From Chrysomallon squamiferum (Eukaryota; Animalia; Mollusca), in contig CM022677.1 in the NCBI GenBank assembly GCA_012295275.1, positions 13,330,001-13,394,000 on the forward strand: a stretch of 64,000 nt of DNA, in the 5' to 3' direction. The translations under genes and the position numbers were made by a program. Below the pieces are notes generated by a model, which made no database searches, was not told the origin of the DNA, and was given only the letters and a program-made list of their open reading frames with translations. How positions within the stretch are numbered: position 1 is the first letter of the stretch; every line of letters starts with the position of its first letter. Below, piece by piece: positions 8,459-30,059 of this stretch.

Positions 8459-8542
8459 CCTATCGAAGCAATAGCTTGATTACAAATGAATTATATTTTA
8501 AAAATTAAATATTAAATATAAAATATTACGGAAATTACGTAA

Positions 8543-9127: not shown

Positions 9128-9427
9128 ATCCCAACTCAACTCTTGTGTAATTTTTAAAAAACAAACCCCAACTCAACTCTTGTGTAATTTTTAAAAAACT
9201 ATGTATAACTTTACTGGTTTTCTGGTTTTCTGGTTTTCTGATCTTGAAAGCCAATATGTACTTTTAACTTATGACCGTAGGGCTCGGGCTACGCCCGAAG
9301 GAGCTAGTCACCTTCGGGTTAAAAGTACATATTGGCTTTTAAGACCAGAAAACCAGAAAACCAGGAAAGTTATACATTGTTTTTTAAAAAATGCACAAGA
9401 GTTGAGTTGGGGTATATCATCATACCA
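9128..9427. repeat. Type B terminal hairpin (left end of unit 2), flip form
   Basis: Imperfect palindrome of ~245 bp, 9166-9412 (CCCCAACTCAACTCTTGTG...CACAAGAGTTGAGTTGGGG), with CTGGTTTT iterons and a GC-rich core at 9266-9320. Confidence 0.92.
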
Positions 9428-9773
9428 TTTTTAACCACGTGTTACATTAATATATTACTATTAAACTATACTTAATAATAATAACACATATATAATTATT
9501 CATATATTTTATTATTATTAATATATATATTTACATTATTTTATTAATGATTTTTATTATTAACATAACATTGTTATTATAATAACACATATATAACATT
9601 TATGAATATATATATTTATTAACAATAATATATATATATATATATGATTAATATTTTATTAACATATTTATTTTAATATTTAACAACCATATTAATACGT
9701 ATTTTAAATTATTTAATTCAACATTTTAATATAGAACTATAACAATGAACATAGTTTATAATGTTTATATGAA

Positions 9774-11954
9774 TTATTCATTCTTATATTTATCGAAAAT
9801 ATCCATTTGTGTTTCTTGAATGGTATCAGAAAACATTGCCTCGAATGGTTGTGACGGCGGAATATAAAATTTAAATTTTTTTTGACTGTCATGTTCTGGT
9901 TCATGATCGACTGTGATGTACTGAGGATCTATGCAATCTGTATCCGATACGTCTTCTGTTTCCACTTCGTAAAATTTTCTTTTAATGCCTTTCTCATGTT
10001 GACTGTTATCTTTGATTTTGTTTTGTGATTGTCTGAATAAATCTTGAGATGGATTATAAATGGTATCATCTTCTGAGTCGGAAATCACAATGTATTCAGG
10101 TTCTGTGTTTATAACCAGTTCTTTTTTAATATTAGGTTCATTAGTGTCTTCAGAACAATCTTGACTAGGATCGAAATGGTCGTGATAATAGCTGAGTCTT
10201 CCTTCGAAAGAATTGTCATTGTTATGTATGTTGTTAATGTTATTAAAGTATTCTCTATCGTTCTCAAGCGCTAAATTGATTTCGTCATCGGTAGGTTCAC
10301 GACCTACCGTAAACAGTTTTGGATGCAACAATCCATAACATTGCTTGAGAATGTTACTTCTCTTTAAGTCCTCTATGAGAAACAGTCTAGTTTTCATTAT
10401 TCGAATTTGTGTTGTTGTTAACCCATCACCAAATCTATTGTTTGAATTTAGTAAGCACAGGTTACCTCGACAATACACAGGAGTTGTGCCTTTCCGCTCG
10501 CAGGTAGCCTTCGATCCACTTAGTAAATCCTTATACTTATCGATGTTAGTCTGATTTATGGATATTTCTTCACCTAGAATTATTTTTTTATTGCCTAACA
10601 TCTGCCAAGGAAAATTGTCCTTGGCAATTTTACCGGCTGTTGGTACGCATTCGAATAATGAGCTAGATAGCATCGTTTTTCCACTGTCTGATTCTCCTTG
10701 AAAATATACACCAATCTTTTTTTTTCCTTTACCCTTCAATAATCCAACTATTAAACTATACATCCATCTTTCCGGTATTTCTTGTTCGACACACCACGAA
10801 TTAAACATCTTGAAACTATCATCCGGGCTCATGTAGTGGTCTATCTTATCGTTAAGTATTTTTAATTGTTCGAACGCTGTTTTCTCTGCTTGTTCTTCTA
10901 AATATTTCGATCTTGCTGCGTTAAAAAGTTTATCACCAGATGCATTGGCAACTGCATTGCACAGCGCTTTGAATTCATTGGTGCCTGATTCAAACTTACT
11001 AATTAGTAAGTTTAACTTGTTGACATCTGGATATTGTTTTATGAGGTTATAGAAGAACTCTAGAGTATCAGATGACTTTGTATTTATCAGATGTGACGGA
11101 ATAGATATTTTTTCTGAATCCATATTTTTAGCATTTTCGGAAGTATCCATTGATTGAATTATAATGTTATCTCTCTTGACTTCGTTTACTGTAAGTCCGT
11201 CTTGTTTATATCCCGATGTCGATGGTTGAACAATAGAGTCGTACTTCTTAACTGGATTTCTAATAGTACAGGCATTATTTTTATTCAATTTGCTTGTTGC
11301 TGAATCATCGAAAAAATCTCTCAAAATGTTGAGAATATCTGTGTCATTTTCATTTATTTCCTTTTCGATCGAATTCCATATTTGTAACATTCCTTCGTCG
11401 GTTGTTCCTAAATACTGTTTTTCATCATCAGACATCAAATATTTTATATAATCGTCTATCGTAGATTTTTGTGGATCGCGTAGTTTCATGATCTCCATGT
11501 ATCCACCTTCGCCTAACACTGCTCTATGTAGTCGCCTATACTGCCTGTCTTGAGACGGTGTTTTAAGGGATGTTTTCCAGATAACATGGCAGTGAGTCCC
11601 GTATGTTGGATGGTTAACATTTGATTGGCAGTCTTTTTGGTGGTATACTAACAATGTCTTCCAGGATTTATTCCTTAAAAAGGCTTTAAATTCATTAATG
11701 ACACGATCCTGGCCACGAGGAAGATTTTCATAATTGGGTGTTGACCAGTGGTCAACCACTTTATCTAAAAGATCTTGTAAGTCCATTTCATATGATTTAA
11801 TGTATTGCTTTCCGGTAGCATAAATGAAATTGCCATCCTTATCTCGTGCCAGACATCTTGGTACGAGATACTTCGGATGTACCATATCGTAGTTAAGATG
11901 ACCAATTACGACACTGTAAAAGATCTGATCTGGTAGATCAACAAATCTATCCAT
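9774..11954 (-). CDS. NS1: NS1/Rep, intact (726 aa): HUH endonuclease + SF3 helicase
   Basis: HUH motif GTHCHVIW, candidate catalytic Tyr in YIKYLM, Walker A GESDSGKT, Walker B IILGEE, B' region KDLLSG...ERKG and motif C LLNSNN. This matches the parvoviral NS1 architecture. Confidence 0.96.
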   Translation of the reverse strand: MDRFVDLPDQIFYSVVIGHLNYDMVHPKYLVPRCLARDKDGNFIYATGKQYIKSYEMDLQDLLDKVVDHWSTPNYENLPRGQDRVINEFKAFLRNKSWKTLLVYHQKDCQSNVNHPTYGTHCHVIWKTSLKTPSQDRQYRRLHRAVLGEGGYMEIMKLRDPQKSTIDDYIKYLMSDDEKQYLGTTDEGMLQIWNSIEKEINENDTDILNILRDFFDDSATSKLNKNNACTIRNPVKKYDSIVQPSTSGYKQDGLTVNEVKRDNIIIQSMDTSENAKNMDSEKISIPSHLINTKSSDTLEFFYNLIKQYPDVNKLNLLISKFESGTNEFKALCNAVANASGDKLFNAARSKYLEEQAEKTAFEQLKILNDKIDHYMSPDDSFKMFNSWCVEQEIPERWMYSLIVGLLKGKGKKKIGVYFQGESDSGKTMLSSSLFECVPTAGKIAKDNFPWQMLGNKKIILGEEISINQTNIDKYKDLLSGSKATCERKGTTPVYCRGNLCLLNSNNRFGDGLTTTQIRIMKTRLFLIEDLKRSNILKQCYGLLHPKLFTVGREPTDDEINLALENDREYFNNINNIHNNDNSFEGRLSYYHDHFDPSQDCSEDTNEPNIKKELVINTEPEYIVISDSEDDTIYNPSQDLFRQSQNKIKDNSQHEKGIKRKFYEVETEDVSDTDCIDPQYITVDHEPEHDSQKKFKFYIPPSQPFEAMFSDTIQETQMDIFDKYKNE

Positions 11955-12002
11955 ATTGTATAATATCTTTAGTTTAACTTATTACGTTAAAAGATAATTG
12001 AC

Positions 12003-12132
12003 AACTGACAAACTTTCAAAACGTTCTTTATTTATACAATTATGTACATGACGTCACACAAATGACATAATATGGCGTACGTGACAAAATGAACGTAACG
12101 TTATTAAAAGACTAATCACTGTATTCATACGC
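12003..12132 (-). promoter_or_regulatory. Internal NS1 promoter / probable VP polyadenylation signal, unit 2
   Basis: TGACGTCA (12049-12056), TATAAATAAA (12036-12027) and TCAGTT initiator (12008-12003) with its A 30 nt from the TATA start. Conserved GCGTATGAATACAGT at 12132-12118. Confidence 0.8.
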
Positions 12133-12138
12133 ATATAA

Positions 12139-14265
12139 TTATATTGGATACGACCAGTCAAATGCGTTACCCATAGTTTGTACAGTTCTATCACCGTATG
12201 CACCATGTAATGGCCATAATTGTCTACGTCTATTACGTCTTTTATTCCAATTATCCCAAATAGGAGCAAAGCATCTCATTTTCCATGTTTTCTGAATTCT
12301 TTCTTTATATTTTTCAAGTGGTTCACCCAAGAACTGATCTTGTTCAGTATGTGTAACATTATCTTTATTACCCATTGGAGTAGATTCCCCTTTTTTAAAT
12401 GTTAATCCTAACATATTACCTGGACATCCTCCTAAACCGATCGGAATATATTTTGGACACATCCCTGTTCTAACTACAAATTCCACTTCACTGTAATATG
12501 TTATATGGATATTTGCATGATAATTGAAATATAATGTATTTCCTCCACTAGTTTTTTCTATATCAGGATATAAACCTATCATGTATATCGGAGGTCTGTT
12601 ACATTGGAATGTACGTCTATGAGAGCCATCTTTACATGAATCGACTTGTGGGTTATTAGCATTATTATGCATTACACCTGAGAGACTATATTTAGTACCT
12701 CCGTCATCTACCATAGATGGAGCACCAAGTTTATTAGATGCTTTATTTTGAAAACATGCTGTATAATGTATTCGTCTATACTGATGGTTAAAATAGCAAC
12801 ATATAGCTGTACCCATAGGATGTTTAGATTCATCCGTAATTATTAGATCATGTGTAGGCCATACTTCCAAATTACCTTTATTTTCATTAGCACACTGATA
12901 ATTTGTTTTTTGACATAATCCAGAAATATCTGTAAAATTTAATGTATGAGATGTTTCAGATGGAAAAATAATTAATGGTGAATCTTTACATGTGTAATCT
13001 AGTGCAAATCCACCTGCACTAATTACAGTTTCACGATAGCCATCATGTTTTTTAATATTGTAAATATAGTTAGGAGATTCGGCTTTATAAGTTATTCCAT
13101 CATCCTGTACATTCCATGCATGGTTTAATAATTGCATAGCCATATCACTAGGCATAAACAATTTTCTATCTGGTTGAACTTTTATACTACGTTCATTTAC
13201 ACTATCCATACATTCTTCATCTCGGAAGTAATGATTATGATGTAACATCAAATTATTTTCTGGTAATCCATAATCATTATGAACATCAGTGAATGTCCAT
13301 ACACGTGAATTAGGTGGTGCCATTACAGGAACTTCATTAGGATCTGATTTGTTATTATTTAATACATGAATAATCATATTATTTATGCTGAAACCTATTT
13401 TTTTTACTTTATATCCAATAAAATCATCAGGCAAATTCCAGTCTTCTGGATTAGTACTAGCTGCTTTATACCAATATGGAATTATATGTCCACCATGATT
13501 AAAAGTAAATTGACAAACATTTGGATCGCCTATGGCTTTCTTCCAATTTACATCATCTGTATTATTATCTAATATCTTCATTTCTGCTTTTCTGTCTTTT
13601 GTGAAATTTATAGTACTATTAAATGTACGTTTAAATGTTTTTTTTATCGTAATGTATCTAGGATCTAATACTTTTGTAGTTCCACCAAAACCCTGGTATA
13701 ATACATTATTACCAGTAGCTGATGCCATAGGTGCGCCTTCTATTGCTTCAGATCCACCAGTATCTGTAACCTCTTCGTTCATGATGGAATCTGGTTCCAT
13801 AACTGATTCCTCAGGTTGTAGATAGGTACCTTTAGTATTCGATTTATCCAATACATCTTGAGAAACAGTATTAGATAACTGTTTATTATCTCTGAATTTC
13901 GCATCTGATCCTCCAGATGGTTCACTTGAATTTCTCTTCATAGCTGATTTATCTGGATGTCTGGATGAGTCGTGTAAATCTCCTTGTTGTTCTTGGTTAT
14001 CGTAGAATAAAGGGGACCCGAAAGGGTCGTCTTCGTCCGAATCTTCAATAGAGTTATAGTCTTGCCCAATATTCTGAATTGCCTGATAGAAATCGTTATT
14101 AGGAATTTGTATATTTGGATACTGACGTCTGATCTGTAGCCACCTTTCTTGTCGTTGTTTGTAGGGGACATTTAGCTCAGCTAATTTGTTGAATGCTTTA
14201 GATTTGGCTATAGCCCACAGACGAGTTACCTCCGGCTTCGTCAAAAGTCTTTTGCCTTTTGTCAT
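12139..14265 (-). CDS. VP: Capsid protein (VP), intact (708 aa), no PLA2 motif
   Basis: The segment HIIPYWYKAASTNPEDWNLPDDFIGYKVKKIGFSINNM parallels the conserved parvoviral capsid stretch (AAV [42 protein letters not shown]). Disordered acidic N-terminus followed by a short Gly-rich GFGG. Assignment is by eye and by context. Confidence 0.85.
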   Translation of the reverse strand: MTKGKRLLTKPEVTRLWAIAKSKAFNKLAELNVPYKQRQERWLQIRRQYPNIQIPNNDFYQAIQNIGQDYNSIEDSDEDDPFGSPLFYDNQEQQGDLHDSSRHPDKSAMKRNSSEPSGGSDAKFRDNKQLSNTVSQDVLDKSNTKGTYLQPEESVMEPDSIMNEEVTDTGGSEAIEGAPMASATGNNVLYQGFGGTTKVLDPRYITIKKTFKRTFNSTINFTKDRKAEMKILDNNTDDVNWKKAIGDPNVCQFTFNHGGHIIPYWYKAASTNPEDWNLPDDFIGYKVKKIGFSINNMIIHVLNNNKSDPNEVPVMAPPNSRVWTFTDVHNDYGLPENNLMLHHNHYFRDEECMDSVNERSIKVQPDRKLFMPSDMAMQLLNHAWNVQDDGITYKAESPNYIYNIKKHDGYRETVISAGGFALDYTCKDSPLIIFPSETSHTLNFTDISGLCQKTNYQCANENKGNLEVWPTHDLIITDESKHPMGTAICCYFNHQYRRIHYTACFQNKASNKLGAPSMVDDGGTKYSLSGVMHNNANNPQVDSCKDGSHRRTFQCNRPPIYMIGLYPDIEKTSGGNTLYFNYHANIHITYYSEVEFVVRTGMCPKYIPIGLGGCPGNMLGLTFKKGESTPMGNKDNVTHTEQDQFLGEPLEKYKERIQKTWKMRCFAPIWDNWNKRRNRRRQLWPLHGAYGDRTVQTMGNAFDWSYPI
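13938..14171 (-). CDS. Candidate overprinted ORF-X (77 aa, basic)
   Basis: Open in the +1 frame of VP, ends at an ATGA overlapping the VP Met in SAMKR, and is conserved across units. Confidence 0.5.
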   Translation of the reverse strand: MSPTNNDKKGGYRSDVSIQIYKFLITISIRQFRILGKTITLLKIRTKTTLSGPLYSTITKNNKEIYTTHPDIQINQL

Positions 14266-14749
14266 GAAATTGGTATACGCGTGTATATATATGATACGTT
14301 TTCGTCTTCTTCAGCCTCTATTTCGTTACGTTCAGAATGTGTGACGTCAGTATCTATATCCTTTCTATCTGATTGAATGAATTCACCAAATTCATTAATG
14401 GCTTGTTCTATCTGATTTTTGGTATAATCAGCTACGCCTTCTATAGCCGATTCCACAACAGACGTTCCAATATTAATAGCAGGATCTAATAGTATACTAT
14501 CAGCTCCTATAATTTCTGTTATGGCAGGTGCAGTTGATTTTTAGTATATGTAGAAATACCTTCAACTGACGATTCTACAATAGATTGTCCAATAGCTGTA
14601 GCTGGCTCCAGGTCTATACTATCAGCTCCCAATATTTCAGTAATAGCAGGTACTGTAGATTCTATTATGGCAGATATAGCTATTTCCACTGAAGCATCAA
14701 AAGCATATTCGATAATTTCAGTTGCTATAATGCCTAAAGCTGTGAACAT
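14262..14749 (-). pseudogene. Chimeric, out-of-frame small ORF of unit 2 (unit 1-type 5' part joined to unit 3-type 3' part)
   Basis: 14534-14749 is nearly identical to 8243-8458, while 14262-14539 resembles 20151-20428. The join is at a shared TTGATT (14534-14539). Confidence 0.9.
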
Positions 14750-14833
14750 CCTATCGAAGCAATAGCTTGATTACAAATGAATTATATTTTAAAAATTAAA
14801 TATTAAATATAAAATATTACGGAAATTACGTAA

Positions 14834-15115
14834 TACTCTTCAAAATAAAAAAGCGTGGGGGGTGAATTTTGTAATGACCTGATAGATTTCAACCTAACTC
14901 TTGTTATTGTAAAAAAAACAAAGTTCCTCATGATCTGGCTTTTTAGCTTTTTGGCTTTTTGACCATAATGTACTTTTAGCCCGAAGGTGATAACGTTCCT
15001 TCGGGCGTAGCCAGAACCCGAAGGATCATATGTTAAAAGTACATTATGGTCAAAAAGCCAAAAAGCTAAAAAGCCATGTAGTGAGGAACTTTGTTTTTTT
15101 TACAATAACAAGAGT
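14834..15115. repeat. Type A ITR/hairpin, flop form
   Basis: Matches 8543-8692 continuing into 8990-9127; core at 14978-15034. Confidence 0.92.
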
Positions 15116-15410
15116 ATCCCAACTCAACTCTTGTGTAATTTTTAAAAAACAAACCCCAACTCAACTCTTGTGTAATTTTTAAAAAACTATGTATAACTTT
15201 ACTGGTTTTCTGGTTTTCTGGTTTTCTGATCTTGAAAGCCAATATGTACTTTTAGCCCGAAGGTGACTAGCTCCTTCGGGCGTAGCCCGAGCCCTACGGT
15301 CATAAGCTAAAAGTACATATTGGCTTTCAAGATCAGAAAACCAGAAAACCAGTAAAGTTATACATAGTTTTTTAAAAATTACACAAGAGTTGAGTTGGGG
15401 TATATCATCA
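15116..15410. repeat. Type B terminal hairpin (left end of unit 3), flop form
   Basis: Palindrome at ~15154-15400. The core at 15254-15308 is the reverse complement of the core at 9266-9320. Confidence 0.92.
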
Positions 15411-15661
15411 ACCGATTTTCTCAACCACGTGTTTATATATTTATTAATGTTATGATATTATTAAATAATAACAACAAATATATAATTTTAATAATATGTT
15501 TATTAATGATATTAAATATATATTTGAACATTATTTTATTAACATTTTAATTGAATAGTTGAACATAATATATTATTAATTCAATTATATTTTTATTTAT
15601 ATTACAATTTTTAATAACACAATTATAACTATTATTATTGTTCATAATGTTTTTGTCGTAC

Positions 15662-17842
15662 TTATTCACTCTTATATTTCTGAAAGATATCCATCTGAGT
15701 TTCTTGAATTGTATCATCAAACATTGTATCGAATGGTTGAGATGGTGGTATATAGAATTTAAATCGTTTCTGACTAAGATGTTCTGGTTCATTATCAATC
15801 GTGATGTAATTAGGATCCATTTCTTCTGTATCTGATACATCTTCCGTTTCAACTTCGTAATGTTTTCGTTTTAAGCCTTTATCATTTTGAATGTTCTCTT
15901 TCAATTTGTTTTGGGATTGTATGAATAAATCCTGTGACGGATTATAAACACTTTCTTCTTCAGAATCAGAAATTACTATGTACTCAGGTTCTGCGTTTAC
16001 AACAATCTCTTTTTTAATATTGTCTTCATTATCCACTTGAGTACAATCCTGACTATTGTCGAAATGGTCGTGGAAATAACTGAGTCTTCCTTCAAACGAA
16101 TTGTCGTTATTATGAATGTTATTAATGTTCGCAAAGTATTCTCTATCGTTTTCAAGAGATAAAGTTATTTCATCATCAGATGGTTCACGGCCTACTGTAA
16201 ATAGTTTTGGGTGCAACAGCCCATAACATTGCTTAAGAATATTACTTCTTTTTAAACCTTCTATCAGAAACAATCTAGTTTTCATAATTCTTATTTGTGA
16301 CGTGGTTAACCCATCCCCAAACTTGTTATTAGAATTCAGTAAACATAGGTTACCTCTGCAATATACGGGTGTTGTCCCTTTCCGCTCACACGTAGCCTTT
16401 GATCCACTCAATAAGTCCTTATACTTGTCAATATTTGTTTGGTTTATGGAAATCTCTTCGCCTAGAATTATTTTTTTATTTCCCAACATTTGCCAAGGAA
16501 AATTATCCTTGGCAATTTTACCTGCTGTTGGTACGCATTCAAATAATGAACTTGACACCATAGTTTTCCCGCTGTCCGATTCGCCCTGAAAATATACTCC
16601 TATCTTTTTCTTTCCCTTTCCTTTCAATAAACCTACTATTAAACTGTAAAGCCATCTCTCCGGTATGTCCTGCTACCTACACCACGAATTGAAAATCTTA
16701 AAACTATCGTCTGGGCTCATATAGTGATCTATTTTGTCATTAAGTGTTTTTAACTGTTCAAATGCGGACTTGTCTGCTTGTTCTTCCAAATACTTTGATC
16801 TTGCTGCATTAAATAACTTGTCGCCAGATGAATTAGCGACTGCGTTACACAGTGCCTTAAATTCATTACTTCCTGCCTCGAATTTACTAATTAGTAAGTT
16901 TAATTTGTTGACATCTGGATACTGCTTGATAAGATTGTAAAAGAACTCCAGAGTATCTGATGACTTAGTGTTTATTAAATGTGAAGGAATCGATATTTTA
17001 TCTGCTGTAACATTCTTTGGATCATCTGATGTATCCATAGCTTGTATGATACTGTTGTCTCTTTTTACTTCATTTACTGTTAGTCCGTCTTTTCTATATC
17101 CTGATGTTGATGGTTTATCATTAGATTCATTCTTTTTAACTGGATTCCTAATATTGGAAATAATGTTTTTATTCAATTTTGTTGATTGAGACTCATCAAA
17201 AAAATCTTTCAATATGTTCAAGATATCTGCATCATTTTCGTTTATTTCCTTATCAGTGTCATTCCATATTTGTAATAGTCCTTCATCAGTTGTTCCGAGA
17301 AACTGCTTCTCATCATCGTTCATCAAATATTTAATATAATTTTCTACTGTTGACTTTTGAGGATCTCTTAATTTCATAATTTCCATGTATCCGCCTTCAG
17401 TCAAAACGGCTCTGTGTAGTCTCCTGTACTGCCTGTCTTGTGAAGGTGTTTTAAGTGATGTCTTCCAAATTACGTGGCAGTGAGTTCCATATGTTGGATG
17501 GTTCGTAATAGATTGACAGTCTTTTTGGTGATATACGAGAAGTGTTTTCCATGATTTGTTCCTCAAGAAAGCTTTAAATTCATTAATCACTCTGTCTTGT
17601 CCGCGAGAAAGTTGTTCATAGTTTGGAGTCGACCAATGGTCGACTGCCTTGTCTAATACATCTTGTACGTCCATTTGATAGGACTTTATATATTGCTTGC
17701 CAGTAGCATAGATGAAATTTCCATCCTTATCTCGTGCCAGACATCTCGGCACGAGATATTTAGGGTGTACCATGTCGTAATTCAAATGACCAATCACAAC
17801 ACTATAAAAGGTATTATCTGGAAGATCGACGAATCTGTCCAT
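15662..17842 (-). pseudogene. NS1: NS1 of unit 3, full length with a single in-frame stop
   Basis: ORFs 16673-17842 and 15662-16627 are in the same frame. TAG at 16675-16673 replaces the Glu codon of WCREQ. All catalytic motifs are present. Confidence 0.93.
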
Positions 17843-17890
17843 GACGTGTATTTATTTTATATTAACGTGTTAAGTTAAAAGATAATTGAC

Positions 17891-18020: not shown

Positions 18021-18027
18021 GTACATT

Positions 18028-20154
18028 TTATATTGGATACGACCAATCCATTGAATTACCCATAGTTTGGACTGTTCTATCGCCATATGCACCATGTACT
18101 GGCCATAATTGTCTACGTCTATTTCGTCTTTTGTTCCAATTATCCCAAACAGGAGCAGTACATCGCATTATCCATGTTTTCTGTATTCGTTCTTTATATT
18201 TTTCAACTGTTTCACCTAAGAACTGATCTTGTTCTGTATGTTTAACATTATCCTTATTTCCCATCGGTGTAGCTTCACTTCCTTTGTATGTTAATCCTAA
18301 CATATTACCTGGACATCCGCCTAAACCGATGGGAATATATTTTGGACACATCCCTGTTCTAACTACAAATTCTACTTCACTATAATATGTGATATGAATG
18401 TTTGCATGGTAGTTGAAGAATAATGTATTTCCTCCACTAGTTTTTTCTATATCAGGATATAAACCAATCATATATATGGGAGGTCTGTTACACTGAAAGG
18501 TACGTCTATGCGATCCATCTTTACATGCATCGACTTGCGGGTTGTTAGCATTATTATGCATTACACCTGAGAGACTATACTTAGTACCTCCGTCATCTAC
18601 CATAGAAGGAGCACCAAGCTTATTAGATGCTTTGTTTTGAAAACATGCTGTATAATGTATTCTTCTATACTGATGGTTAAAATAACAACATATTGCCGTA
18701 CCCATAGGATGTTTAGATTCATCAGTAACTATTATATCATGCGTAGGCCAGACCTCCAAATTACCTTTGTTTTCATTAGGACATTGATAATTTGATTTTT
18801 GACATAAACCAGAAATATCTGTAAAGTTTAAGGTATGAGATGTTTCAGTTGGAAAAAATATTAATGGTGAATCTTTGCATGTATAATCTAATGCAAATCC
18901 ACCTGCACTAATGACAGTTTCACGATAACCGTCATTTTTCTTAATGTCATAAATATAATTAGGAGATTCTGCTTTATACGTTATACCGTCATCATCAGCA
19001 GTCCATGCATGATTTAATAATTGCATAGCCATATCGCTAGGCATATATAATTTTCTATCTGGTTGTACTTTTATGCTACGTTCAGCTACACTATCCATAC
19101 ATTCTTCATCTCTGAAGTAGTGATTATGATGTAACATTAAATTATTTTCTGGCAATCCATAATCATTATGTACATCTGTAAATGTCCATACACGTGAATT
19201 AGGTGGTGCCATAACAGGAACTTCATTAGGATCAGCTTTGTTATTATTCAATACATGAATTAGCATGTTATTTATGCTAAAACCTATTTTTTTTACTTTG
19301 TATCCAATAAAATCATCTGGTAAGTTCCAATCCTCTGGTTTAGTACTAGCAGCTTTATACCAATATGGAATTATATGTCCACCATGATTAAAAGTAAATT
19401 GACAAACATTTGGATCGCCTATGGCTTTTTTCCAATTTACATCATCTGTATTATTATCTAATATTTTCATTTCTGCTTTTCTTTCTTTTGTAAAATTTAT
19501 AGTACTATTAAATGTACGTTTAAATGTTTTTTTTATCGTAATGTATCTAGGATCTAATACTTTTGTAGTTCCACCAAAACCCTGGTATAATACATTGTTA
19601 CCAGTAGCTGATGCCATAGGTGCGCCTTCTATTGCTTCAGATCCACCAGTATCTGTAACCTCTTCGTTCATGATGGAATCTGGTTCCATAACTGATTCCT
19701 CAGGTTGTAGATAGGTACCTTTAGTATTCGATTTATCCAATACATCTTGAGAAACAGTATTAGATAACTGTTTATTATCTCTGAATTTCGCATCTGATCC
19801 TCCAGATGGTTCACTTGAATTTCTCTTCATAATTGATTGATCTGGATGTCTGGATGAGTCGTGTAAATCTCCTTGTTGTTCTTGGTTATCGTAGAATAAA
19901 GGGGACCCGAAAGGGTCGTCTTCGTCCGAATCTTCAATAGAGTGATAGTCTTGCCCAATATTTTGAATTGCCTGATAGAAATCGTTATTAGGAATTTGTA
20001 TATTTGGATACTGACGTCTGATCTGTAGCCACCTTTCTTGTCGTTGTTTGTAGGGGACATTTAGCTCAGCTAATTGGTTGAATGCTTTAGATTTGGCTAT
20101 AGCCCACAGACGAGTTACCTCCGGCTTCGTCAAAAGTCTTTTGCCTTTTGTCAT
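18028..20154 (-). CDS. VP: Capsid protein (VP), intact (708 aa)
   Basis: Same length as and closely similar to 12139-14265, with many synonymous differences in the 3' two-thirds. Confidence 0.85.
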   Translation of the reverse strand: MTKGKRLLTKPEVTRLWAIAKSKAFNQLAELNVPYKQRQERWLQIRRQYPNIQIPNNDFYQAIQNIGQDYHSIEDSDEDDPFGSPLFYDNQEQQGDLHDSSRHPDQSIMKRNSSEPSGGSDAKFRDNKQLSNTVSQDVLDKSNTKGTYLQPEESVMEPDSIMNEEVTDTGGSEAIEGAPMASATGNNVLYQGFGGTTKVLDPRYITIKKTFKRTFNSTINFTKERKAEMKILDNNTDDVNWKKAIGDPNVCQFTFNHGGHIIPYWYKAASTKPEDWNLPDDFIGYKVKKIGFSINNMLIHVLNNNKADPNEVPVMAPPNSRVWTFTDVHNDYGLPENNLMLHHNHYFRDEECMDSVAERSIKVQPDRKLYMPSDMAMQLLNHAWTADDDGITYKAESPNYIYDIKKNDGYRETVISAGGFALDYTCKDSPLIFFPTETSHTLNFTDISGLCQKSNYQCPNENKGNLEVWPTHDIIVTDESKHPMGTAICCYFNHQYRRIHYTACFQNKASNKLGAPSMVDDGGTKYSLSGVMHNNANNPQVDACKDGSHRRTFQCNRPPIYMIGLYPDIEKTSGGNTLFFNYHANIHITYYSEVEFVVRTGMCPKYIPIGLGGCPGNMLGLTYKGSEATPMGNKDNVKHTEQDQFLGETVEKYKERIQKTWIMRCTAPVWDNWNKRRNRRRQLWPVHGAYGDRTVQTMGNSMDWSYPI
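19827..20060 (-). CDS. Candidate overprinted ORF-X (77 aa)
   Basis: Differs from the unit 2 ORF-X by one residue and has the same ATGA overlap at its stop. Confidence 0.5.
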   Translation of the reverse strand: MSPTNNDKKGGYRSDVSIQIYKFLITISIRQFKILGKTITLLKIRTKTTLSGPLYSTITKNNKEIYTTHPDIQINQL

Positions 20155-20516
20155 GAAATTGGTGTACGTGTGTATATATATGATACGTTTTCGTCTTCTT
20201 CAGCCTCTATTTGGTTACGTTCATAAGGTGTGACGTCAGAATCTATATCCTTTCTATCTGATTGTATAAATTCACCAAATTCATTAATTGCTTGCTCGAT
20301 CTGATTTTTAGTATAATCAGCTACGCCTTCTACAGCCGATTCCACTACAGACGTTCCAATATTAATAGCAGGATCTAATAGTATACTATCAGCTCCTATT
20401 ATTTCTGTTATAGCAGGTGCAGTTGATTCTAATATAGCAGATGTAGCTATTTCAACAGATGCATCAAATGCGTACTCAATTAATTCGGTAGCTATTATCC
20501 CCAATGCTGTGAACAT
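20151..20516 (-). CDS. Small acidic viral protein (121 aa), intact
   Basis: Homologue of 8093-8458 with the same length and an ATGA overlap with the VP start. Confidence 0.85.
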   Translation of the reverse strand: MFTALGIIATELIEYAFDASVEIATSAILESTAPAITEIIGADSILLDPAINIGTSVVESAVEGVADYTKNQIEQAINEFGEFIQSDRKDIDSDVTPYERNQIEAEEDENVSYIYTRTPIS

Positions 20517-20529
20517 CCTAGTATCGACT

Positions 20530-21050
20530 ATTATTTTGAAATGATAAAATTATAATAATCAATATTATATATATAATATATAACGGATATGACGTAATAC
20601 GTCACGTGACATGAATGTGGTATGATGATATACCCCAACTCAACTCTTGTGTAATTTTCTATAATCAATTTTCTATAATCATTTTCTATAATCAATATTA
20701 TATATATAATATATAACGGATATGACGTAATACGTCGGTCATGACATGAATGTGGTATGATGATCAATTAATTCGGTAGCTATTATCCCCAACTCTTGTG
20801 TATCCTATTTCAACTATTATTTTGAAATGATAAAAAACCATCAAATTATATATATAGTTTTTTGAAAAATTACACAATGTATAATGTGGTTGATGGTTTT
20901 CTGGTTTTCTGTAATTTTCTATAATCAATTTTCTATAATAATTTTCTATAATCAATATTATATATATAATATATAACGGATATGACGTAATACGTCACGT
21001 GACATGAATGTGGTATGATGATATACCCCAACTCAACTCTTGTGTAATTT
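20530..21050. repeat. Triplicated and scrambled VP-promoter/ITR-proximal region of unit 3
   Basis: ATATAACGGATATGACGTAATACGTC...GACATGAATGTGGTATGATGAT occurs three times (~20577, ~20711, ~20971), interleaved with short pieces copied from nearby sequence. Confidence 0.85.
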
Positions 21051-22125
21051 CAAGATCAGAAAACCAGAAAACCAGTAAAGTTATACATAGTTTTTTAAAA
21101 ATTACACAATGTATAACTTTACTGGTTTTCTGGTTTTCTGATCTTGAAAGCCAATATGTACTTTTAGCTTATGACCGTAGGGCTCGGGCTACGCCCGAAG
21201 GAGCTAGTCACCTTCGGGCTAAAAGTACATATTGGCTTTCAAGATCAGAAAACCAGAAAACCAGTAAAGTTATACATAGTTTTTTAAAAATTACACAAGA
21301 GTTGAGTTGGGGATCCCAACTCAACTCTTGTGTAATTTTTAAAAAACAAAGTATAACTGTAATCGATTTTTGGTTTTGCGGTCTTAAAAGCCAATGTGTA
21401 CTTTTAGCTTATGACCGTAGGAGCTAGTCACCTTCGGGCTAAAAGTACACATTGGCTTTTAAGACCGCAAAACCAAAAATCGATTACAGTTATACTTTGT
21501 TTTTTAAAAATTACACAAGAGTTGAGTTGGGTCAACCTAACTCTTGTTATTGTAAAAAAAACAAAGTTCCTCATGATCTGGCTTTTTAGCTTTTTGGCTT
21601 TTTGACCATAATGTACTTTTAACTTATGATCCTTAGGGTTCTGGCTTCGCCCGAAGGAACGTTATCACCTTCGGGCTAAAAGTACATTATGGTCAAAAAG
21701 CCAAAAAGCTAAAAAGCCAGATCATAGTGGAACTTTTTTTTTTTTTTACAATAACAAGAGTTAGGTTGAAATTGCAAAGTTCCTCATGATCTGGCTTTTT
21801 AGCCTTTTGGCTTTTTGACCATAATGTACTTTTAGCCCGAAGGTGATAACGTTCCTTCGGGCGTAGCCAGAACCCGAAGGATCATATGTTAAAAGTACAT
21901 TATGGTCAAAAAGCCAAAAAGCTAAAAAGCTTTTTGGTTTTTTGGTCTTAAGTATCAATGTGTACTTTTATCTTATGACCGTAGGGCTCGGGCTACGCCC
22001 GAAGGAGCTAGTCACCTTCGGGATAAAAGTACACATTGATACTTAAGACCAAAAAACCAAAAAGCGAGAAAAGTTATACATAGTTTTTTAAAAATTACAC
22101 AAGAGTTGAGTTGGGATATCTCATC
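21023..22125. repeat. Cluster of five terminal hairpins: type B, variant B', type A flip, type A flop, type C
   Basis: Cores at 21166-21220, 21406-21440 (internally deleted), 21621-21677, 21834-21890 and 21970-22024. The stretch 21532-21930 re-uses the unit 1 double hairpin at ~8694-9086. Confidence 0.92.
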
Positions 22126-22371
22126 ATCCCGATTTTAACCAGGTGTTTTTTTTTTTTTTTAAACTATTTTAATTATTTATAATTTTTTTTATTATATACT
22201 ATTATTTAATATACTATTATTTTATTATATTATTAAAAATGATAACAAGATTATATATTTTTAACAATATATTTATTAATATCATAATATAACATTTTAA
22301 TATAACACATTATAACTGTTAACAATATATTAATATATTAATAATATATTAATAATGTTATTTTATTATAT

Positions 22372-24546
22372 TTATTCACTTTTATATTTTTGAAAAATGT
22401 CCATCTGTGTTTCTTGTATTGTATCTGTAAACATGGTATCGAACGGTTGCGATGGAGGTATGTAAAACTTAAATCGTTTATCACTAACATTCTCTGGTTC
22501 ATGATCAATGGTAATGTAATTAGGATCCATTTGTTCATCTTCCGATATGTCTTCTGTCTCAACTTCATAGTGTTTTCGTTTTACACCTGTATTATGTTGA
22601 CTTTCCTGCTTTAATTTATTTTGCGACTGTATGAACATATCCTGTGACGGATTATACACGCTTTCGTCATCTGAATCAGGAATGACTATATAATCAGGTT
22701 CTGTATTTTCAACTGTTTCTCTTTTAATATTGTCAATATTATCACGTTGGGTACAATCTTGGCTATTATCAAAATGATCGTGAAAATAGCTAAGTCTTCC
22801 TTCAAATGAATTGTCATTGATATGAATATTATTAATATTCATGAAATATTCTCTGTCATTTTCCATCGATAAAGTCATTTCATCATCTGAAGGTTCACGT
22901 CCAACTACAAATAATTTTGGGTGTAAAAGCCCGTAACATTGTTTGAGAATGTTACTTCGTTTCAATCCTTCAATCAAAAATAGTCTAGTTTTCATAATCC
23001 GTATTTGTGAACTTGTCAAACCGTCGCCAAATTTGTTGTTAGAGTTCAGTAAACATAAATTACCTCTACAATAAACAGGTGTTGTTCCTTTTCGTTCACA
23101 TGTGGCTTTCGATCCACTTAACAAATCTTTGTATTTGTCAATGTTAGTTTGATTAATAGAAATTTCTTCTCCAAGAATTATTTTCTTTCCCCCTAACATT
23201 TGCCAAGGAAAATTATCCTTGGCAATTTTACCTGCTGTTGGCACACACTCAAATAACGAACTCGAAACCATAGTCTTTCCACTGTCAGATTCTCCTTGGA
23301 AATATAGTCCTATTTTTTTCTTACCCTTTCCTTTCAATAATGATACTATCGAGGTATAAAGCCATCTCTCTGGTATTTCCTGCTCTCTACACCAGGAATT
23401 AAAAATTTTGAAGCTATCGTCCGGATTCATATAATGATCTATGTTATCGTTCATTGTTTTTAATTGCTCAAAGGCTGATTTATCTGCCTGTTCTTCTGTA
23501 TATTTTGTTCTAGCTGCTTTGAACAACTTATCACCAGACGAATTGGCTACTGCGTTACAAAGTGCTTTGAATTCATTACTTCCGGAATCGAATTTGCCGA
23601 TAAGTAAGTTCAATTTATTTACGTCTGGATACTGCTTTATCAAGTTATAAAAGAATTCAAGTGTATCTGATGATTTAGTGTTGATTAAATGAGACGGAAT
23701 GGATATTTTATCGGTTGTGTCAGCCTTCACATTTTCTGTTGTATCCATTGCTTGTATCATCATATTATCACGCTTTACATCAATTGCTGTCATTCCATCT
23801 CTGTTATATCCTGAAGTTGATGGTTTATCATTAGAATCATGCTTCTTCACTGGATTCCTTATATTGGATACAATACTTTTATTAAGTTTCGTAGATTGAG
23901 ATTCATCAAAGAAATCTCTCAATATATTCATTATCTCATTATCGTTCTCATTTAGTTCTTTGTCAATATCGTTCCATGTCTGTAGCATGCCTTGATCAGT
24001 TGTTCCTAGGAACTGTTTTTCATCATCATTCATTAGGTATTTTATATAATGTTCTAATGATGATTTCTGAGGATCTTTTAATTTCATTATTTCCATATAT
24101 CCACCTTCAGTTAAAATAGCTCTATGAAGTCTTCTATACTGTCTGTCCTGTGAAGGTGTTTTCTCTTCCAAACTATGTGACAATGTGTCCCATACGTTGT
24201 ATGATTTAGTAACAGACTCACAATCTTTCTGATGGTACACAAGAAGTGTTTTCCACGACTTGTTTCTCAAAAACGCTTTCAACTCATTTATAACTCTGTC
24301 TTGTCCACGTGATAACTGTTCGTAATTTGGAGTTGACCAATGATCAACTACTTTGTCCAATAAATCTTGCATGTCCATTTGATACGATTTGATATACTGT
24401 TTTCCTGTAGCATATATGAAGTTTCCATCTTTATCTCGTGCAAGACATCTAGGCACGAGATACTTAGGGTGTACCATGTCATAATTTAAATGACCAACTA
24501 CTACGCTATAAAATGTCTCATCAGGAAGATCGACAAATCTGTCCAT
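22372..24546 (-). CDS. NS1: NS1 of unit 4: open reading frame but HUH motif lost through compensating frameshifts
   Basis: The protein reads KSYNVWDTLSHSLEEK where other units have NHPTYGTHCHVIWKTSLK. NHTTYGTHCHIVWK is still readable in the adjacent frame at ~24165-24206. Helicase motifs are intact. Confidence 0.88.
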   Translation of the reverse strand: MDRFVDLPDETFYSVVVGHLNYDMVHPKYLVPRCLARDKDGNFIYATGKQYIKSYQMDMQDLLDKVVDHWSTPNYEQLSRGQDRVINELKAFLRNKSWKTLLVYHQKDCESVTKSYNVWDTLSHSLEEKTPSQDRQYRRLHRAILTEGGYMEIMKLKDPQKSSLEHYIKYLMNDDEKQFLGTTDQGMLQTWNDIDKELNENDNEIMNILRDFFDESQSTKLNKSIVSNIRNPVKKHDSNDKPSTSGYNRDGMTAIDVKRDNMMIQAMDTTENVKADTTDKISIPSHLINTKSSDTLEFFYNLIKQYPDVNKLNLLIGKFDSGSNEFKALCNAVANSSGDKLFKAARTKYTEEQADKSAFEQLKTMNDNIDHYMNPDDSFKIFNSWCREQEIPERWLYTSIVSLLKGKGKKKIGLYFQGESDSGKTMVSSSLFECVPTAGKIAKDNFPWQMLGGKKIILGEEISINQTNIDKYKDLLSGSKATCERKGTTPVYCRGNLCLLNSNNKFGDGLTSSQIRIMKTRLFLIEGLKRSNILKQCYGLLHPKLFVVGREPSDDEMTLSMENDREYFMNINNIHINDNSFEGRLSYFHDHFDNSQDCTQRDNIDNIKRETVENTEPDYIVIPDSDDESVYNPSQDMFIQSQNKLKQESQHNTGVKRKHYEVETEDISEDEQMDPNYITIDHEPENVSDKRFKFYIPPSQPFDTMFTDTIQETQMDIFQKYKSE

Positions 24547-24594
24547 CACTTTATATGGTTTTATAGTATCTATTTACGTTAAAAGATGAGTAAC

Positions 24595-24724
24595 AACTGA
24601 CAACTTTTAAAACGTCGCTTTATTTATAGAGTTATGTACATGACGTCATATTTATGACGTAATACGGCTTACGTGACAAAATTAACGTAACGTTAACAAA
24701 AGACTAATCACTGTATTCATACGC
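24595..24724 (-). promoter_or_regulatory. Internal NS1 promoter, unit 4
   Basis: TGACGTCA at 24641-24648, TATAAATAAA at 24628-24619 and TCAGTT at 24600-24595. Confidence 0.8.
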
Positions 24725-24732
24725 GTAATAGT

Positions 24733-26841
24733 TTATATTGGATATGACCAATCATTTCCGTTTCCCATAGTTTCTAACGTTCTATCAACATATGCACCAT
24801 GTAATGGCCAAAGTTGTCTACGTCTATTTCTACGTTTATTCCAATTATCCCATATAGGTGCAAATGTTCTCATTTTCCATGTTTTGCTTATTCGTTCCTT
24901 ATATTTAGCTGCGTCTTCACCTAAAAACTGATCTTGTTCAGTATGTTTAACATTATCTTTATTGCCCATTGGTGTACTGTCATCTTTTTTAAAGATAAGA
25001 CCTTCCATATTACCAGGACATCCTCCTAATCCTATTGGAATGTATTTAGGACACATTCCAGTTCTTACAATAAATTCAATTTCACTATAATATGTTATTT
25101 GAATATTAGCATGATAATTGAAAAATAACGTATTTCCACCGCTTGTTTTTTCTATGTCTGGATATAGTCCTATCAAAAACATAGGAGGTCTATTACATTG
25201 ATAGGTACGTCTATGTGATCCGTCTTTGCAAACATCAATATTAGGATTATTAGCATTATTATGCATAACGCCCTGATTACTAAGTTTAGTACCTCCATCA
25301 TCTACCATAGAAGGTGCACCCAGTACATTAGATGCTTTATTTTGAAAACATGCTGTATAATGTATACGTCTGTACTGATGAATAAAATAACAACATATTG
25401 CTGTTCCCATTGGATGGTCAGTTGTATTAGTAATCACTATATCATGGGTTGGCCACACCTCTAAATTACCCTTATTTTCATTAGCACATTGATATTTAGA
25501 TTTCTGACATAAACCAGATATATCTGTAAAATTAAGTGTATGAGATGTTTCAGATGGAAATAAAACTGTTGGTGAATCTTTACATGTATAATCTAATGCA
25601 AAACCACCAGCACTAATAACAGTTTCACGATATCCATCATGCTTTTTCATATCGTAAATATAATTGGGCGAAAATGTTTTATATTCTAAACCATCACCTG
25701 TCCAAGCATGATTTAGTATTTGCATTGCCATATCACTTGGTAAATATAATTTTCTATCTGGTTGTACTTTTATACTTCTATTAGATATATCATCCATACA
25801 TTCTTCATCCATAAAATAATAATTGTGAGATAAATTTAAATTTTTCTCAGGCAATCCGTAATCATTATTTACATCTGTAAACGTCCAAATTCTAGCATTA
25901 GGTGGAGCCATTACAGGTACTTCGTTAGGATCAGATTTATTATTATTCAATACATGAACAAGCATATTATTTATATTACGTTTTCTATATCCCATAAAAT
26001 CGTCAGGTAAATTCCAATCCTGAGCGGTAGTACTAGCAGCTTTATACCAATACGGTATTATGTGCCCACCGTGATTAAATGTGAATTCACATACATTCGG
26101 ATCACCTATTCCTTTTTTCCAATTTACATTATCAGAATTATTATCTAATACTTTCATAAGTGCTTTACGTTCTTTAGTAAAGTTAATAGTACTAGTAAAT
26201 GTTCGTTTAAATGTCTTTTTGATAGTTATATATCGTGGATCTGTATACTTAGTTGATCCTCCAAAACCTTGATATAAAACATTATTACCAGTTGCCGACG
26301 CCATAGGTGCACCTTCCACTGCTTCACTTCCGCCAGTATCTGTAACTTCTTCATTCATTATGGAATCCGGTTCCATAACAGATTCTTGAGGTTGTAAATA
26401 CGTTCCCTTAGAATTCGATCTGTCTAATACATCTTGAGAAACTGTATTGGACAATTGTTTATTATCTCGAACCTTTGAATCGGTTCCTCCAGATGGTTCA
26501 GATGAGTGTCGTTTCATAGCTGATTGATCTGGATATCCGGATGTGTCTTGTAAATTTCCTTGTTGTTCTTGGTTATCGTAGAATAAAGGGGACCCGAAAG
26601 GGTCGTCTTCGTCCGAATCTTCAATAGAGTGATAGTCTTGCCCAATATTTTGAATTGCCTGATAGAAATCGTTATTCGGAATTTGTATATTTGGATACTG
26701 ACGTCGGATCTGAAGCCACCTTTCTTGTCGTTTTGAATAGGGGACATTTAGTTCAGCTAATTTGTTAAATGCTTTAGATTTTGCTATAGCCCACAGACGA
26801 GTTACCTCTGGCTTCGTCAAAAGTCTTTTGCCTTTTGTCAT
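24733..26841 (-). CDS. VP: Capsid protein (VP), 702 aa, small in-frame deletions
   Basis: Collinear with the 708-aa copies. GYRKRNINNM replaces GYKVKKIGFSINNM, a likely damaging deletion in a conserved strand. Confidence 0.83.
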   Translation of the reverse strand: MTKGKRLLTKPEVTRLWAIAKSKAFNKLAELNVPYSKRQERWLQIRRQYPNIQIPNNDFYQAIQNIGQDYHSIEDSDEDDPFGSPLFYDNQEQQGNLQDTSGYPDQSAMKRHSSEPSGGTDSKVRDNKQLSNTVSQDVLDRSNSKGTYLQPQESVMEPDSIMNEEVTDTGGSEAVEGAPMASATGNNVLYQGFGGSTKYTDPRYITIKKTFKRTFTSTINFTKERKALMKVLDNNSDNVNWKKGIGDPNVCEFTFNHGGHIIPYWYKAASTTAQDWNLPDDFMGYRKRNINNMLVHVLNNNKSDPNEVPVMAPPNARIWTFTDVNNDYGLPEKNLNLSHNYYFMDEECMDDISNRSIKVQPDRKLYLPSDMAMQILNHAWTGDGLEYKTFSPNYIYDMKKHDGYRETVISAGGFALDYTCKDSPTVLFPSETSHTLNFTDISGLCQKSKYQCANENKGNLEVWPTHDIVITNTTDHPMGTAICCYFIHQYRRIHYTACFQNKASNVLGAPSMVDDGGTKLSNQGVMHNNANNPNIDVCKDGSHRRTYQCNRPPMFLIGLYPDIEKTSGGNTLFFNYHANIQITYYSEIEFIVRTGMCPKYIPIGLGGCPGNMEGLIFKKDDSTPMGNKDNVKHTEQDQFLGEDAAKYKERISKTWKMRTFAPIWDNWNKRRNRRRQLWPLHGAYVDRTLETMGNGNDWSYPI
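26514..26747 (-). CDS. Candidate overprinted ORF-X (77 aa)
   Basis: Same start, length and ATGA-overlapping stop as in units 2 and 3. Confidence 0.5.
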   Translation of the reverse strand: MSPIQNDKKGGFRSDVSIQIYKFRITISIRQFKILGKTITLLKIRTKTTLSGPLYSTITKNNKEIYKTHPDIQINQL

Positions 26842-27203
26842 GAAACTGGTATACGCGTATATATATATGATACGTTTTCGTCTTCTTCAGCCTCTATCTG
26901 ATTGCGTTCAGCAGGTGTGACGTCAGTATCTATATCGTTTCTCTCTGATTCTATAAAATCACCTAATTCATTAATTGCTTGTTCGATCTGATTTTTAGTA
27001 TAATCAGCTATTCCTTCGACAGCCGATTCAACTACAGACGTTCCAATATTAATAGCAGGATCTATTAATATACTATCAGCTCCTATTATTTCTGTGATAG
27101 CTGGTGCAGTGGATTCTAATATAGCAGATGTAGCGATTTCAACAGATGCATCAAATGCGTACTCAATTAATTCGGTAGCTATTATTCCCAATGCTGTGAA
27201 CAT
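26838..27203 (-). CDS. Small acidic viral protein (121 aa), intact
   Basis: The ATG at 27203 gives MFTALGII... with the same length as the other copies, and the stop overlaps the VP start as ATGA. Confidence 0.85.
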   Translation of the reverse strand: MFTALGIIATELIEYAFDASVEIATSAILESTAPAITEIIGADSILIDPAINIGTSVVESAVEGIADYTKNQIEQAINELGDFIESERNDIDTDVTPAERNQIEAEEDENVSYIYTRIPVS

Positions 27204-27305
27204 CCTACTATCAATAAATAATATCAAATGAAGATACTATAATAATTAATATATATATAGTAAATATACCGGATATGACGTAATATATCACGTGTCAATG
27301 AATCG

Positions 27306-27454
27306 GGATGATGAGATATCCCAACTCAACTCTTGTGTAATTTTTAAAAAACTATGTATAACTTTTCTCGCTTTTTGGTTTTTTGGTCTTAAGTATCAAT
27401 GTGTACTTTTATCCCGAAGGTGACTAGCTCCTTCGGGCGTAGCCCGAGCCCTAC
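27306..27454. repeat. Type C right ITR of unit 4, truncated inside the hairpin core
   Basis: Reverse complement of ~21981-22130; breaks off at GAGCCCTAC where unit 5 begins. Confidence 0.9.
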
Positions 27455-30034: not shown

Positions 30035-30059
30035 ATAATAACTTAAACCACGTGGTTTG

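What the first reader, a model, noticed from the sequence alone, without database searches (positions are those of the whole stretch)
9128..27454. Parvovirus-like genomes with inverted gene order: capsid upstream of Rep on one strand
Seen: in every full unit the minus strand runs small ORF -> VP -> NS1. Terminal hairpins lie only downstream of NS1 and upstream of the small ORF, while the ~190-bp VP-NS1 gap holds a promoter and no hairpin. Units 1, 3 and 4 are each bounded by mutually inverted termini of their own type (e.g. ~21981-22130 vs 27306-27454), so the order is not a concatemer permutation. Established: monosense Parvoviridae place NS 5' of VP, and ambisense densoviruses put them on opposite strands. 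Inference: this is an undescribed cap-before-rep lineage of homotelomeric parvo-like viruses, present here as several distinct strains or species. I know of no classified example but cannot search.
Basis: partly seen in the sequence, partly recalled or inferred. Interest (0 to 1): 0.93.

Follow-up and report, generated by a model that had tools for sequence, protein, structure and literature searches.

The report
Parvovirus genomes with capsid gene first
An animal chromosome carries six back-to-back parvovirus-like genome copies whose end hairpins place the capsid gene before the replication gene, the reverse of the textbook order, and they likely belong to an unclassified lineage whose distant relatives are already deposited but were not noted for this layout.

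Summary
Observation confirmed. Window ~3390-34660 is a head-to-tail array of six endogenous parvovirus-like units. Five run small ORF -> VP -> NS1 on the minus strand; one has NS1 only. Large hairpins lie only outside that block, and none lies in the 184-232-nt VP-NS1 gaps. In U3, U4 and U5 the two ends match each other best, inverted. The 708-aa ORF folds as a parvoviral capsid; NS1 has HUH motifs and an AAV/B19-like SF3 helicase. The units diverged under purifying selection (dN/dS 0.04-0.21), so the order is likely viral.

Novelty is lower than claimed. Buck et al. 2024 deposited four relatives (VP about 25% identical) whose proteins are listed accessory -> VP -> NS1. Their text does not remark on the order and suggests most Cah-bearing parvoviruses are circular. 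No classified genus with this layout turned up in 10 literature searches. What the window adds is real termini that fix a linear, capsid-first genome, and a shared TATA/poly(A) site between VP and NS1. Named relatives are sea-slug gene models.

The parts
3387..9127 (-). Unit U1: small ORF 8093-8458 (121 aa), VP remnant 6012-8096, NS1 remnant ~4063-5799; type-A termini (VP side 8595-9127 with repeated hairpins, NS side 3387-3783 degraded). VP and NS1 are broken by frameshifts, stops and a deletion.
9128..9440 (.). U2 NS-side terminal hairpin (type B, ~250 nt, dG -101.8, 8-nt TTTTCTGG repeats in the stem)
9774..11954 (-). U2 NS1, 726 aa: HUH motif (H121/H123, Y172), SF3 helicase (Walker A GESDSGKT)
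11955..12138 (-). U2 VP-NS1 gap, 184 nt: CRE-like TGACGTCA (12056) and TATAAATAAAG (12036), a TATA-like site overlapping an AATAAA; no hairpin
12139..14265 (-). U2 VP, 708 aa; predicted parvoviral single jelly-roll core (residues 180-708); no PLA2 motif detected
14262..14533 (-). 3' part of the U2 small ORF; its 5' part and terminus are replaced by a copy of U1's
14534..15115 (.). Near-exact duplicate of the U1 small-ORF start and type-A terminus (450 nt at 99.8%), plus hairpin
15115..21312 (-). Unit U3: type-B termini 15153-15401 and 21092-21312, NS1 15662-17842 (one in-frame stop), VP 18028-20154 (708 aa), small ORF 20151-20516; rearranged repeats at 20555-21110
21313..21930 (.). Extra orphan hairpins: a type-B variant (21313-21531) and type-A copies (21532-21930)
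21929..27454 (-). Unit U4 (~5.5 kb): type-C inverted termini (21981-22134 = 27301-27454), NS1 22372-24546 (open frame, but the HUH-motif stretch is scrambled), VP 24733-26841 (702 aa), small ORF 26838-27203
27454..30034 (-). Unit U5 (~2.6 kb): NS1 only (27700-29711, one frameshift) with the gap motifs upstream, between its own inverted ends (27454-27589 vs 29901-30034)
30049..34660 (-). Unit U6, degraded: terminal fragments 30049-30400, NS1 remnant 30519-32328, VP remnant ~32567-34267, small ORF 34264-34629; cut at the host junction near 34660
53793..54080 (+). Probable host exon, MRVI1 family (E 1.8e-6), in the microsatellite-rich right flank; marks the array as part of an animal chromosome

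Best explanation
The region is an array of six parvovirus-like units in an animal chromosome, five of them reading small ORF, capsid gene, then NS1 between inverted terminal hairpins, and they are likely integrated copies of several related linear viruses that use this capsid-first layout. Shown: gene order, hairpin positions, flip and flop hairpin isomers, unit-matched inverted ends, predicted capsid and helicase folds, purifying selection. Inferred: (1) the free virus replicates by rolling hairpin, with NS1 nicking at identical ends as in AAV or densoviruses; (2) a promoter next to one end (E-box, CRE-like and AT-rich elements) drives the small ORF and VP, the VP start overlapping the small ORF's stop (ATGA); (3) a second promoter in the gap drives NS1, and its TATA-like box contains the first AATAAA after the VP stop, so VP transcripts would end on top of the NS1 promoter and could damp NS1 late in infection; (4) the acidic small protein with a hydrophobic N-terminal half may stand in for the missing PLA2 as a membrane-active minor virion protein (weakest step); (5) the array grew by repeated capture and recombination at the hairpins. 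The lineage is the one holding Buck et al.'s Parvo6835/7226/7324/7825 and sea-slug gene models.
For: Order in 5 of 6 units. Hairpins at termini, none in the gaps. Flip/flop: type-A core 3 flip and 3 flop, type-B/C core 3 flip and 2 flop. Own-unit end matching. VP core model pLDDT 64.6: the 48 PDB rows shown are all parvovirus capsid entries, best 9nek E 2e-9; VIA Z 15.6, rmsd 4.7, 302 aligned. NS1: Parvo_NS1 E 4.5e-10; model matches AAV2 Rep68 over 602 columns, E 5e-14; helicase Z 18.6, rmsd 4.0, 258 aligned; H105, H123 and Y172 invariant in 17 rows. dN/dS 0.04-0.21 in the 10 of 16 pairs where synonymous sites are not saturated. TATAAATAAAG and TGACGTCA in 6 of 6 NS1-upstream regions; CRE-like sites 21 in the array against 2 in a similar length of flank; ATGA overlap in 5 of 5 junctions. 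Relatives: 55 VP hits; 8 of 10 clusters checked include a 5.8-7.4 kb contig. One of 107 stored proteins is a VP(2-110)->NS1-tail(122-313) fusion, so both genes share a strand and VP comes first there. Four published genomes list accessory -> VP -> NS1. That list order matches the published map order for a megaparvovirus-like entry, Parvo6706.
Against: No free genome of the window's own clade with termini was obtained (scans). Gene strand in the published relatives is inferred from list order; their maps and full sequences were not readable. The fusion protein could span two tandem units. Buck et al. suggest most Cah-bearing parvoviruses are circular, though their table lists these four as linear. 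Promoters, poly(A) use and the small protein's role are motif-level inferences; the small ORF has no significant match. The nuclease domain was not folded or searched alone (spans residues 287-580). No family-wide tree was built.
Confidence: 0.82

Rival explanations
1. The virus is really circular, as Buck et al. suggest for most Cah-bearing parvoviruses, and 'capsid first' only reflects where the circle was opened at a hairpin origin.
For: Text of Buck et al., section 13. All units face the same way, as rolling-circle concatemers would.
Against: Units carry two inverted copies of a unit-specific end (U4 154/154; U5 123/131), with flip and flop isomers. That is the product of hairpin transfer on linear genomes (established knowledge). 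Neighbouring units are different genotypes, not copies of one circle.
Confidence: 0.07
2. The units are a parvovirus-derived selfish element that spreads within the germ line, not captured infectious viruses.
For: Many variant contigs in host runs; similar multi-copy arrays in another unnamed assembly and on one Plakobranchus contig; an NS1-only unit with its own ends (U5).
Against: The capsid is under purifying selection (0.09-0.17). Relatives sit on genome-sized stand-alone contigs. The array edges share only a 7-nt AT-rich word. Most units are broken.
Confidence: 0.07
3. The order arose after integration, or in assembly, by shuffling ordinary NS1 -> VP genomes.
For: The termini region is clearly rearranged: a 450-nt exact duplicate and orphan hairpins. 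No listed short-read contig bridges VP to NS1 in one piece (32 of 413 pieces shown).
Against: Five units at 56-95% amino-acid identity share the order and an alignable gap. Five runs from three studies hold 0.61-0.87 of U2's words (one may be the source). A contig with one difference spans the NS1 start and 167 of the 184 gap bases. Distant relatives show the same list order.
Confidence: 0.04

Closest known systems
Buck et al. 2024 large parvoviruses Parvo6835, 7226, 7324, 7825 (BK066838, BK066305, BK066733, BK066677; two labelled 'Cah')
   Same: Same VP family (shared motifs; 24-26% identity over about 450 residues for the three matching stored hits); visibly similar NS1 motifs; proteins listed accessory -> VP -> NS1.
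   Different: 6.8-7.9 kb genomes, longer NS1 with an overprinted ORF, and larger upstream proteins (about 260-550 aa where seen) against a 121-aa ORF here. Found in vertebrate metagenomes, termini not described, group proposed to be mostly circular. The order is not remarked in the text ('order' and 'orientation' 0 hits).
Buck et al. clam 'Cah' parvoviruses (Parvo6526, 6935, 7277, 7597)
   Same: Mollusc-derived; VP listed before NS1; nuclease piece or Alt listed before the helicase piece, which suggests a plus-strand NS cassette on the right.
   Different: Different-looking, shorter VP and a large Cah gene between VP and NS1; homology to the window was not computed.
Sacoglossan gene models (Elysia marginata ElyMa_000467900 and 000468000, E. 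crispata RRG08_013928, E. chlorotica EGW08_005440, Plakobranchus PoB_004493000/004495100/004495400)
   Same: VP about 25-27% and helicase 38-40% identical; the E. marginata VP and NS1 have adjacent tags and the same 7,432-nt contig length.
   Different: Annotated only as hypothetical host proteins; strands not seen.
Classified Parvoviridae (AAV/Dependoparvovirus, B19, Densovirinae, Hamavirinae)
   Same: Hairpin-ended homotelomeric genome of about 5.5 kb, HUH + SF3 NS1, jelly-roll VP.
   Different: NS on the left and VP on the right, or ambisense (PMC11357303, passage); structure-aligned identity only 9-19%; no PLA2 in the window's units.
SwaBA megaparvovirus lineage (PMC13426907)
   Same: Homotelomeric; extra ORFs upstream of NS1; complete endogenous copies.
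   Different: The order is PLA2 ORF, unknown ORF, NS1, VP, so NS1 still precedes VP.

Membership tests
Parvoviridae | Linear genome of about 4-6 kb with palindromic terminal hairpins | tested here: met
   U4 about 5.5 kb, 154-nt perfect inverted ends, hairpins to z -31, flip/flop isomers
Parvoviridae | NS1 with SF3 helicase | tested here: met
   PF01057 E 4.5e-10; Z 18.6 to AAV2 Rep40
Parvoviridae | NS1 with N-terminal HUH endonuclease | tested here: met
   HxH and Tyr motifs conserved over 17 rows; full-length Foldseek alignment to Rep68; the domain was not searched alone
Parvoviridae | Single jelly-roll capsid protein of parvoviral type | tested here: met
Parvoviridae | ssDNA packaged in T=1 particles | not testable with these tools
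   needs virions
Parvoviridae | SF3 helicase falls inside the family-wide tree | not tested
   no classified reference sequences were held as usable records; the trees hold only this lineage
Classified monosense genera (Parvovirinae, Hamavirinae and others) | NS cassette 5' of the VP cassette | tested here: not met
   VP precedes NS1 in 5 of 5 full-layout units; not filed in any genus or subfamily
Densovirinae (ambisense genera) | NS and VP on opposite strands | tested here: not met
   all ORFs on the minus strand
Parvovirinae / Densovirinae | PLA2 domain in VP1 | tested here: not met
   no Pfam PLA2 hit in window VP or small ORF; present in 1 of 29 relatives scanned
Buck et al. Parvo6835-like group | Homologous VP | tested here: met
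   24-26% over 445-477 residues, E about 1e-42 to 1e-46
Buck et al. Cah-bearing parvoviruses | Large helical Cah gene | not tested
   the window has a 121-aa ORF in that position; the published Cah proteins were not compared
Buck et al. Cah-bearing parvoviruses | Apparently circular genome (most members) | tested here: not met
   paired inverted hairpin ends

The most novel reading that the evidence does not exclude
One short sequence serves as both the VP poly(A) signal and the NS1 TATA box, giving a built-in early-to-late switch, and the host keeps capturing strains into one same-strand cluster.
Probability: 0.45. Interest if true: 0.8.

Novelty: new variant of a known kind. Interest (0 to 1): 0.62.

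Why it matters
Reviews state that parvoviruses put NS on the left of the genome (PMC11357303). Here the termini themselves show the reverse layout, which short-read contigs without ends cannot show. It gives a direct test of whether the related 'possibly circular' parvoviruses are in fact linear and capsid-first. It asks how a virus that needs NS1 first makes it from an internal promoter behind the capsid gene. It links dozens of unnamed metagenomic genomes and sea-slug 'hypothetical proteins' to one lineage, and offers a candidate for a new genus or subfamily. The same-strand array of several strains at one locus also suggests a capture site worth testing for small RNAs.

Tried and rejected
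Sequence searches of VP against Pfam and PDB found no significant hit; the fold was needed.

Contig scans for gene order in relatives failed: 5 scans of viral contigs, 1 of genome contigs and the first metagenome scan gave nothing. The second metagenome scan gave one 1,011-nt VP fragment, L001, too short to show order. No whole genome is held for the window.

The small ORF has no significant match. A suspected likeness to the N-terminus of P0058 was rejected (probability 0.1).

RNA runs X6 and X8 (one study) have contigs in 11 and 10 of 30 bins of U2, nearly all in VP or the small ORF. RNA libraries may hold DNA and contigs do not rank genes, so no expression claim is made. Whether the host junction and U5/U6 are present in other individuals remains open.

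No convincing target-site duplication at the array edges. The VP and NS1 trees are quick trees without classified references; four fragments or short rows were added to the VP tree and one short row was left out of the NS1 tree. They only show the window clade as distinct and nearest to the unnamed ~50% relatives.

Plus-strand ORFs 13532-13825 and 21008-21427 have no significant Pfam match; the latter lies across hairpins and is probably spurious. Earlier-findings look-ups returned nothing.

Ten literature searches listed no paper that, by title, abstract start or the passages read, states a VP-before-NS1 parvovirus; most listed papers were not opened. The library lacks most subscription papers.
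Full report
1. What is there. ORF listing and self-comparison show six related units between about 3390 and 34660, all coding on the minus strand. Mapping with the U2 and U4 proteins gives small ORF -> VP -> NS1 in U1, U2, U3, U4 and U6, and NS1 alone in U5. The right flank is rich in microsatellites (1,110 bases against 18 in the array) and holds a probable MRVI1-family exon, so the array lies in an animal chromosome. Five runs of one coded organism from three studies hold 0.61-0.87 of U2's words (5 of 12 rows listed). Two were laid and cover 27 and 30 of 30 bins, with exact pieces of 904-964 nt; one of them may be the source of the assembly.

2. The ends define the order. Ten of 15 terminal regions fold into hairpins of 156-249 nt with z -12.9 to -30.7, and the rest are partial or degraded ends. 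The VP-NS1 gaps give z -2.4 to +0.8. The hairpin cores occur in both flip and flop orientation, the mark of hairpin transfer (established knowledge). U4's two ends are identical and inverted over 154 nt and match each other better than they match U2 or U3 (135/135 against 113/130 and 97/108). U5's ends match at 123/131 and U3's at 88/89, though U3's NS end scores highest with U2's near-identical end; U1's NS end is degraded. Reading the array as NS1 -> VP would put two to four hairpins of different types inside each genome. U2's VP-side end is a duplicate of U1's, and no unit is whole in every part.

3. The proteins. VP has no sequence match in Pfam or PDB. A model of residues 180-708 built on 37 sequences (pLDDT 64.6) matches parvovirus capsids throughout the rows shown: best 9nek, E 2e-9; Z 15.6, rmsd 4.7 over 302 residues. 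The best viral-library rows are unclassified Parvoviridae at 14% identity. NS1 matches Parvo_NS1, B19 NS1 and AAV Rep, keeps HxH and Tyr motifs, and its model aligns with AAV2 Rep68 over its length and with the Rep40 helicase at Z 18.6. The 121-aa small protein is conserved (64-91%), strongly acidic, and hydrophobic in its first half, with no match found.

4. Distinct viruses, not host duplicates. Amino-acid identity between units runs from 56 to 95%. dN/dS is 0.04-0.21 in 10 of 16 comparisons, and synonymous sites are saturated in the other 6. U2 and U3 are mosaic. The shared order therefore likely predates integration.

5. Likely gene expression (inferred from motifs). E-box and CRE-like sites lie between the VP-side end and the small ORF, whose stop overlaps the VP start as ATGA in 5 of 5 units. 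All 6 regions upstream of NS1 keep TGACGTCA followed by TATAAATAAAG. The AATAAA inside it is the first one after the VP stop in U1-U4; U6 has two more at its stop. One site would thus serve as VP poly(A) signal and NS1 TATA box, and late VP transcription could occlude the NS1 promoter. None of this was tested.

6. Relatives. A full HMMER scan found 55 VP relatives, 31 at E below 1e-30. All 10 representatives first checked were unnamed Logan proteins, and 8 of their clusters include a 5.8-7.4 kb contig. One of 29 scanned carries PLA2. A helicase profile found 14 proteins among 7,996 candidates. Of 10 further look-ups, 6 are hypothetical proteins of Elysia or Plakobranchus, including adjacent VP and NS1 tags in E. 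marginata. A mollusc host is plausible for the lineage but is not shown for this window. One of 107 stored proteins is VP followed by an NS1 tail. DNA around relatives could not be fetched, so their order is indirect.

7. What is known. PMC11357303 (passages) says all parvoviruses carry NS on the left. PMC13426907 (passages and sections 3, 17, 22) lists six subfamilies and a megaparvovirus lineage with extra ORFs upstream but NS1 still before VP. PMC5013282 (passages) reports unplaced mollusc parvovirus sequences. Buck et al. 2024 (bioRxiv 10.1101/2024.03.25.586562 = PMC11071296; abstract, outline and passages; parts of supplement files 1, 2 and 5) describe large Cah-bearing parvoviruses, most of them possibly circular. 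Their protein file holds four genomes of this VP family, listed accessory -> VP -> NS1 and tabled as linear; the first ORF of Parvo6835 starts at base 1 on the plus strand. List order agrees with map order in a control case (Parvo6706). Three supplement archives were too large to read and probably include the maps, so strands are unseen and the maps may already display the order. PMC10269833 (search listing only) reports reversed layouts in Iflaviridae, an analogy from RNA viruses. No statement of a capsid-first parvovirus was found in ten searches.

8. Verdict. It works like a homotelomeric parvovirus and meets the protein and terminus criteria tested, but fails the gene-order feature of classified monosense genera and was not placed in a family tree. 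I call it an unclassified parvovirus-like lineage and file it in no genus. The lineage is not wholly new, since distant members are deposited, but the proof by termini of a linear capsid-first genome, the shared TATA/poly(A) site and the multi-strain array appear unreported in what I could search. Novelty: new variant of a known kind. Interest 0.62.

Noticed in passing
window 27454-30034: NS1-only unit of about 2.6 kb with its own inverted ends and the internal promoter motifs; either a defective deletion genome or an NS segment of a bipartite relative.
   Followed up: partly
window 9430-14533 vs 15410-20430: U2 and U3 are 98-100% identical in the 5' part of VP but 77-83% across NS1, which suggests a recombinant or a recent local gene conversion.
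   Followed up: partly
window 22372-24546, around codons 110-130: U4 NS1 keeps an open frame, but the stretch holding the HUH motif reads as unrelated residues, as after a pair of offsetting frameshifts.
   Followed up: partly
window 3817-3870 and 30330-30385: CRE-like repeats also sit just inside the NS-side ends of U1 and U6, downstream of NS1, with no ORF behind them; possibly a relic of a two-ended promoter layout.
   Followed up: no
P0001-P0024 (ENA contigs of 8.4, 61, 297 and 452 kb): Another unnamed assembly holds many VP and NS1 copies about 50% identical to the window's, so probably a similar array in a second host.
   Followed up: partly
P0057: A relative with a PLA2 domain fused in front of the same VP, in the position of the window's small ORF.
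   Followed up: no
P0096-P0100: Related NS1 proteins carry a further conserved-looking C-terminal region of about 300-400 aa (1,049-1,118 aa in all) that the window's NS1 lacks.
   Followed up: no
window 53793-54080: Probable exon of an MRVI1/IRAG-family host gene about 19 kb from the array.
   Followed up: partly
window 59738-60060: Tandem repeat of 66 nt, 4.9 copies, 94% matches, in host flank.
   Followed up: no
window 9430-14530, runs X1, X3, X8: Loose ends and variant contigs at the gap and VP show further strains of this virus elsewhere in the same organism's data.
   Followed up: no
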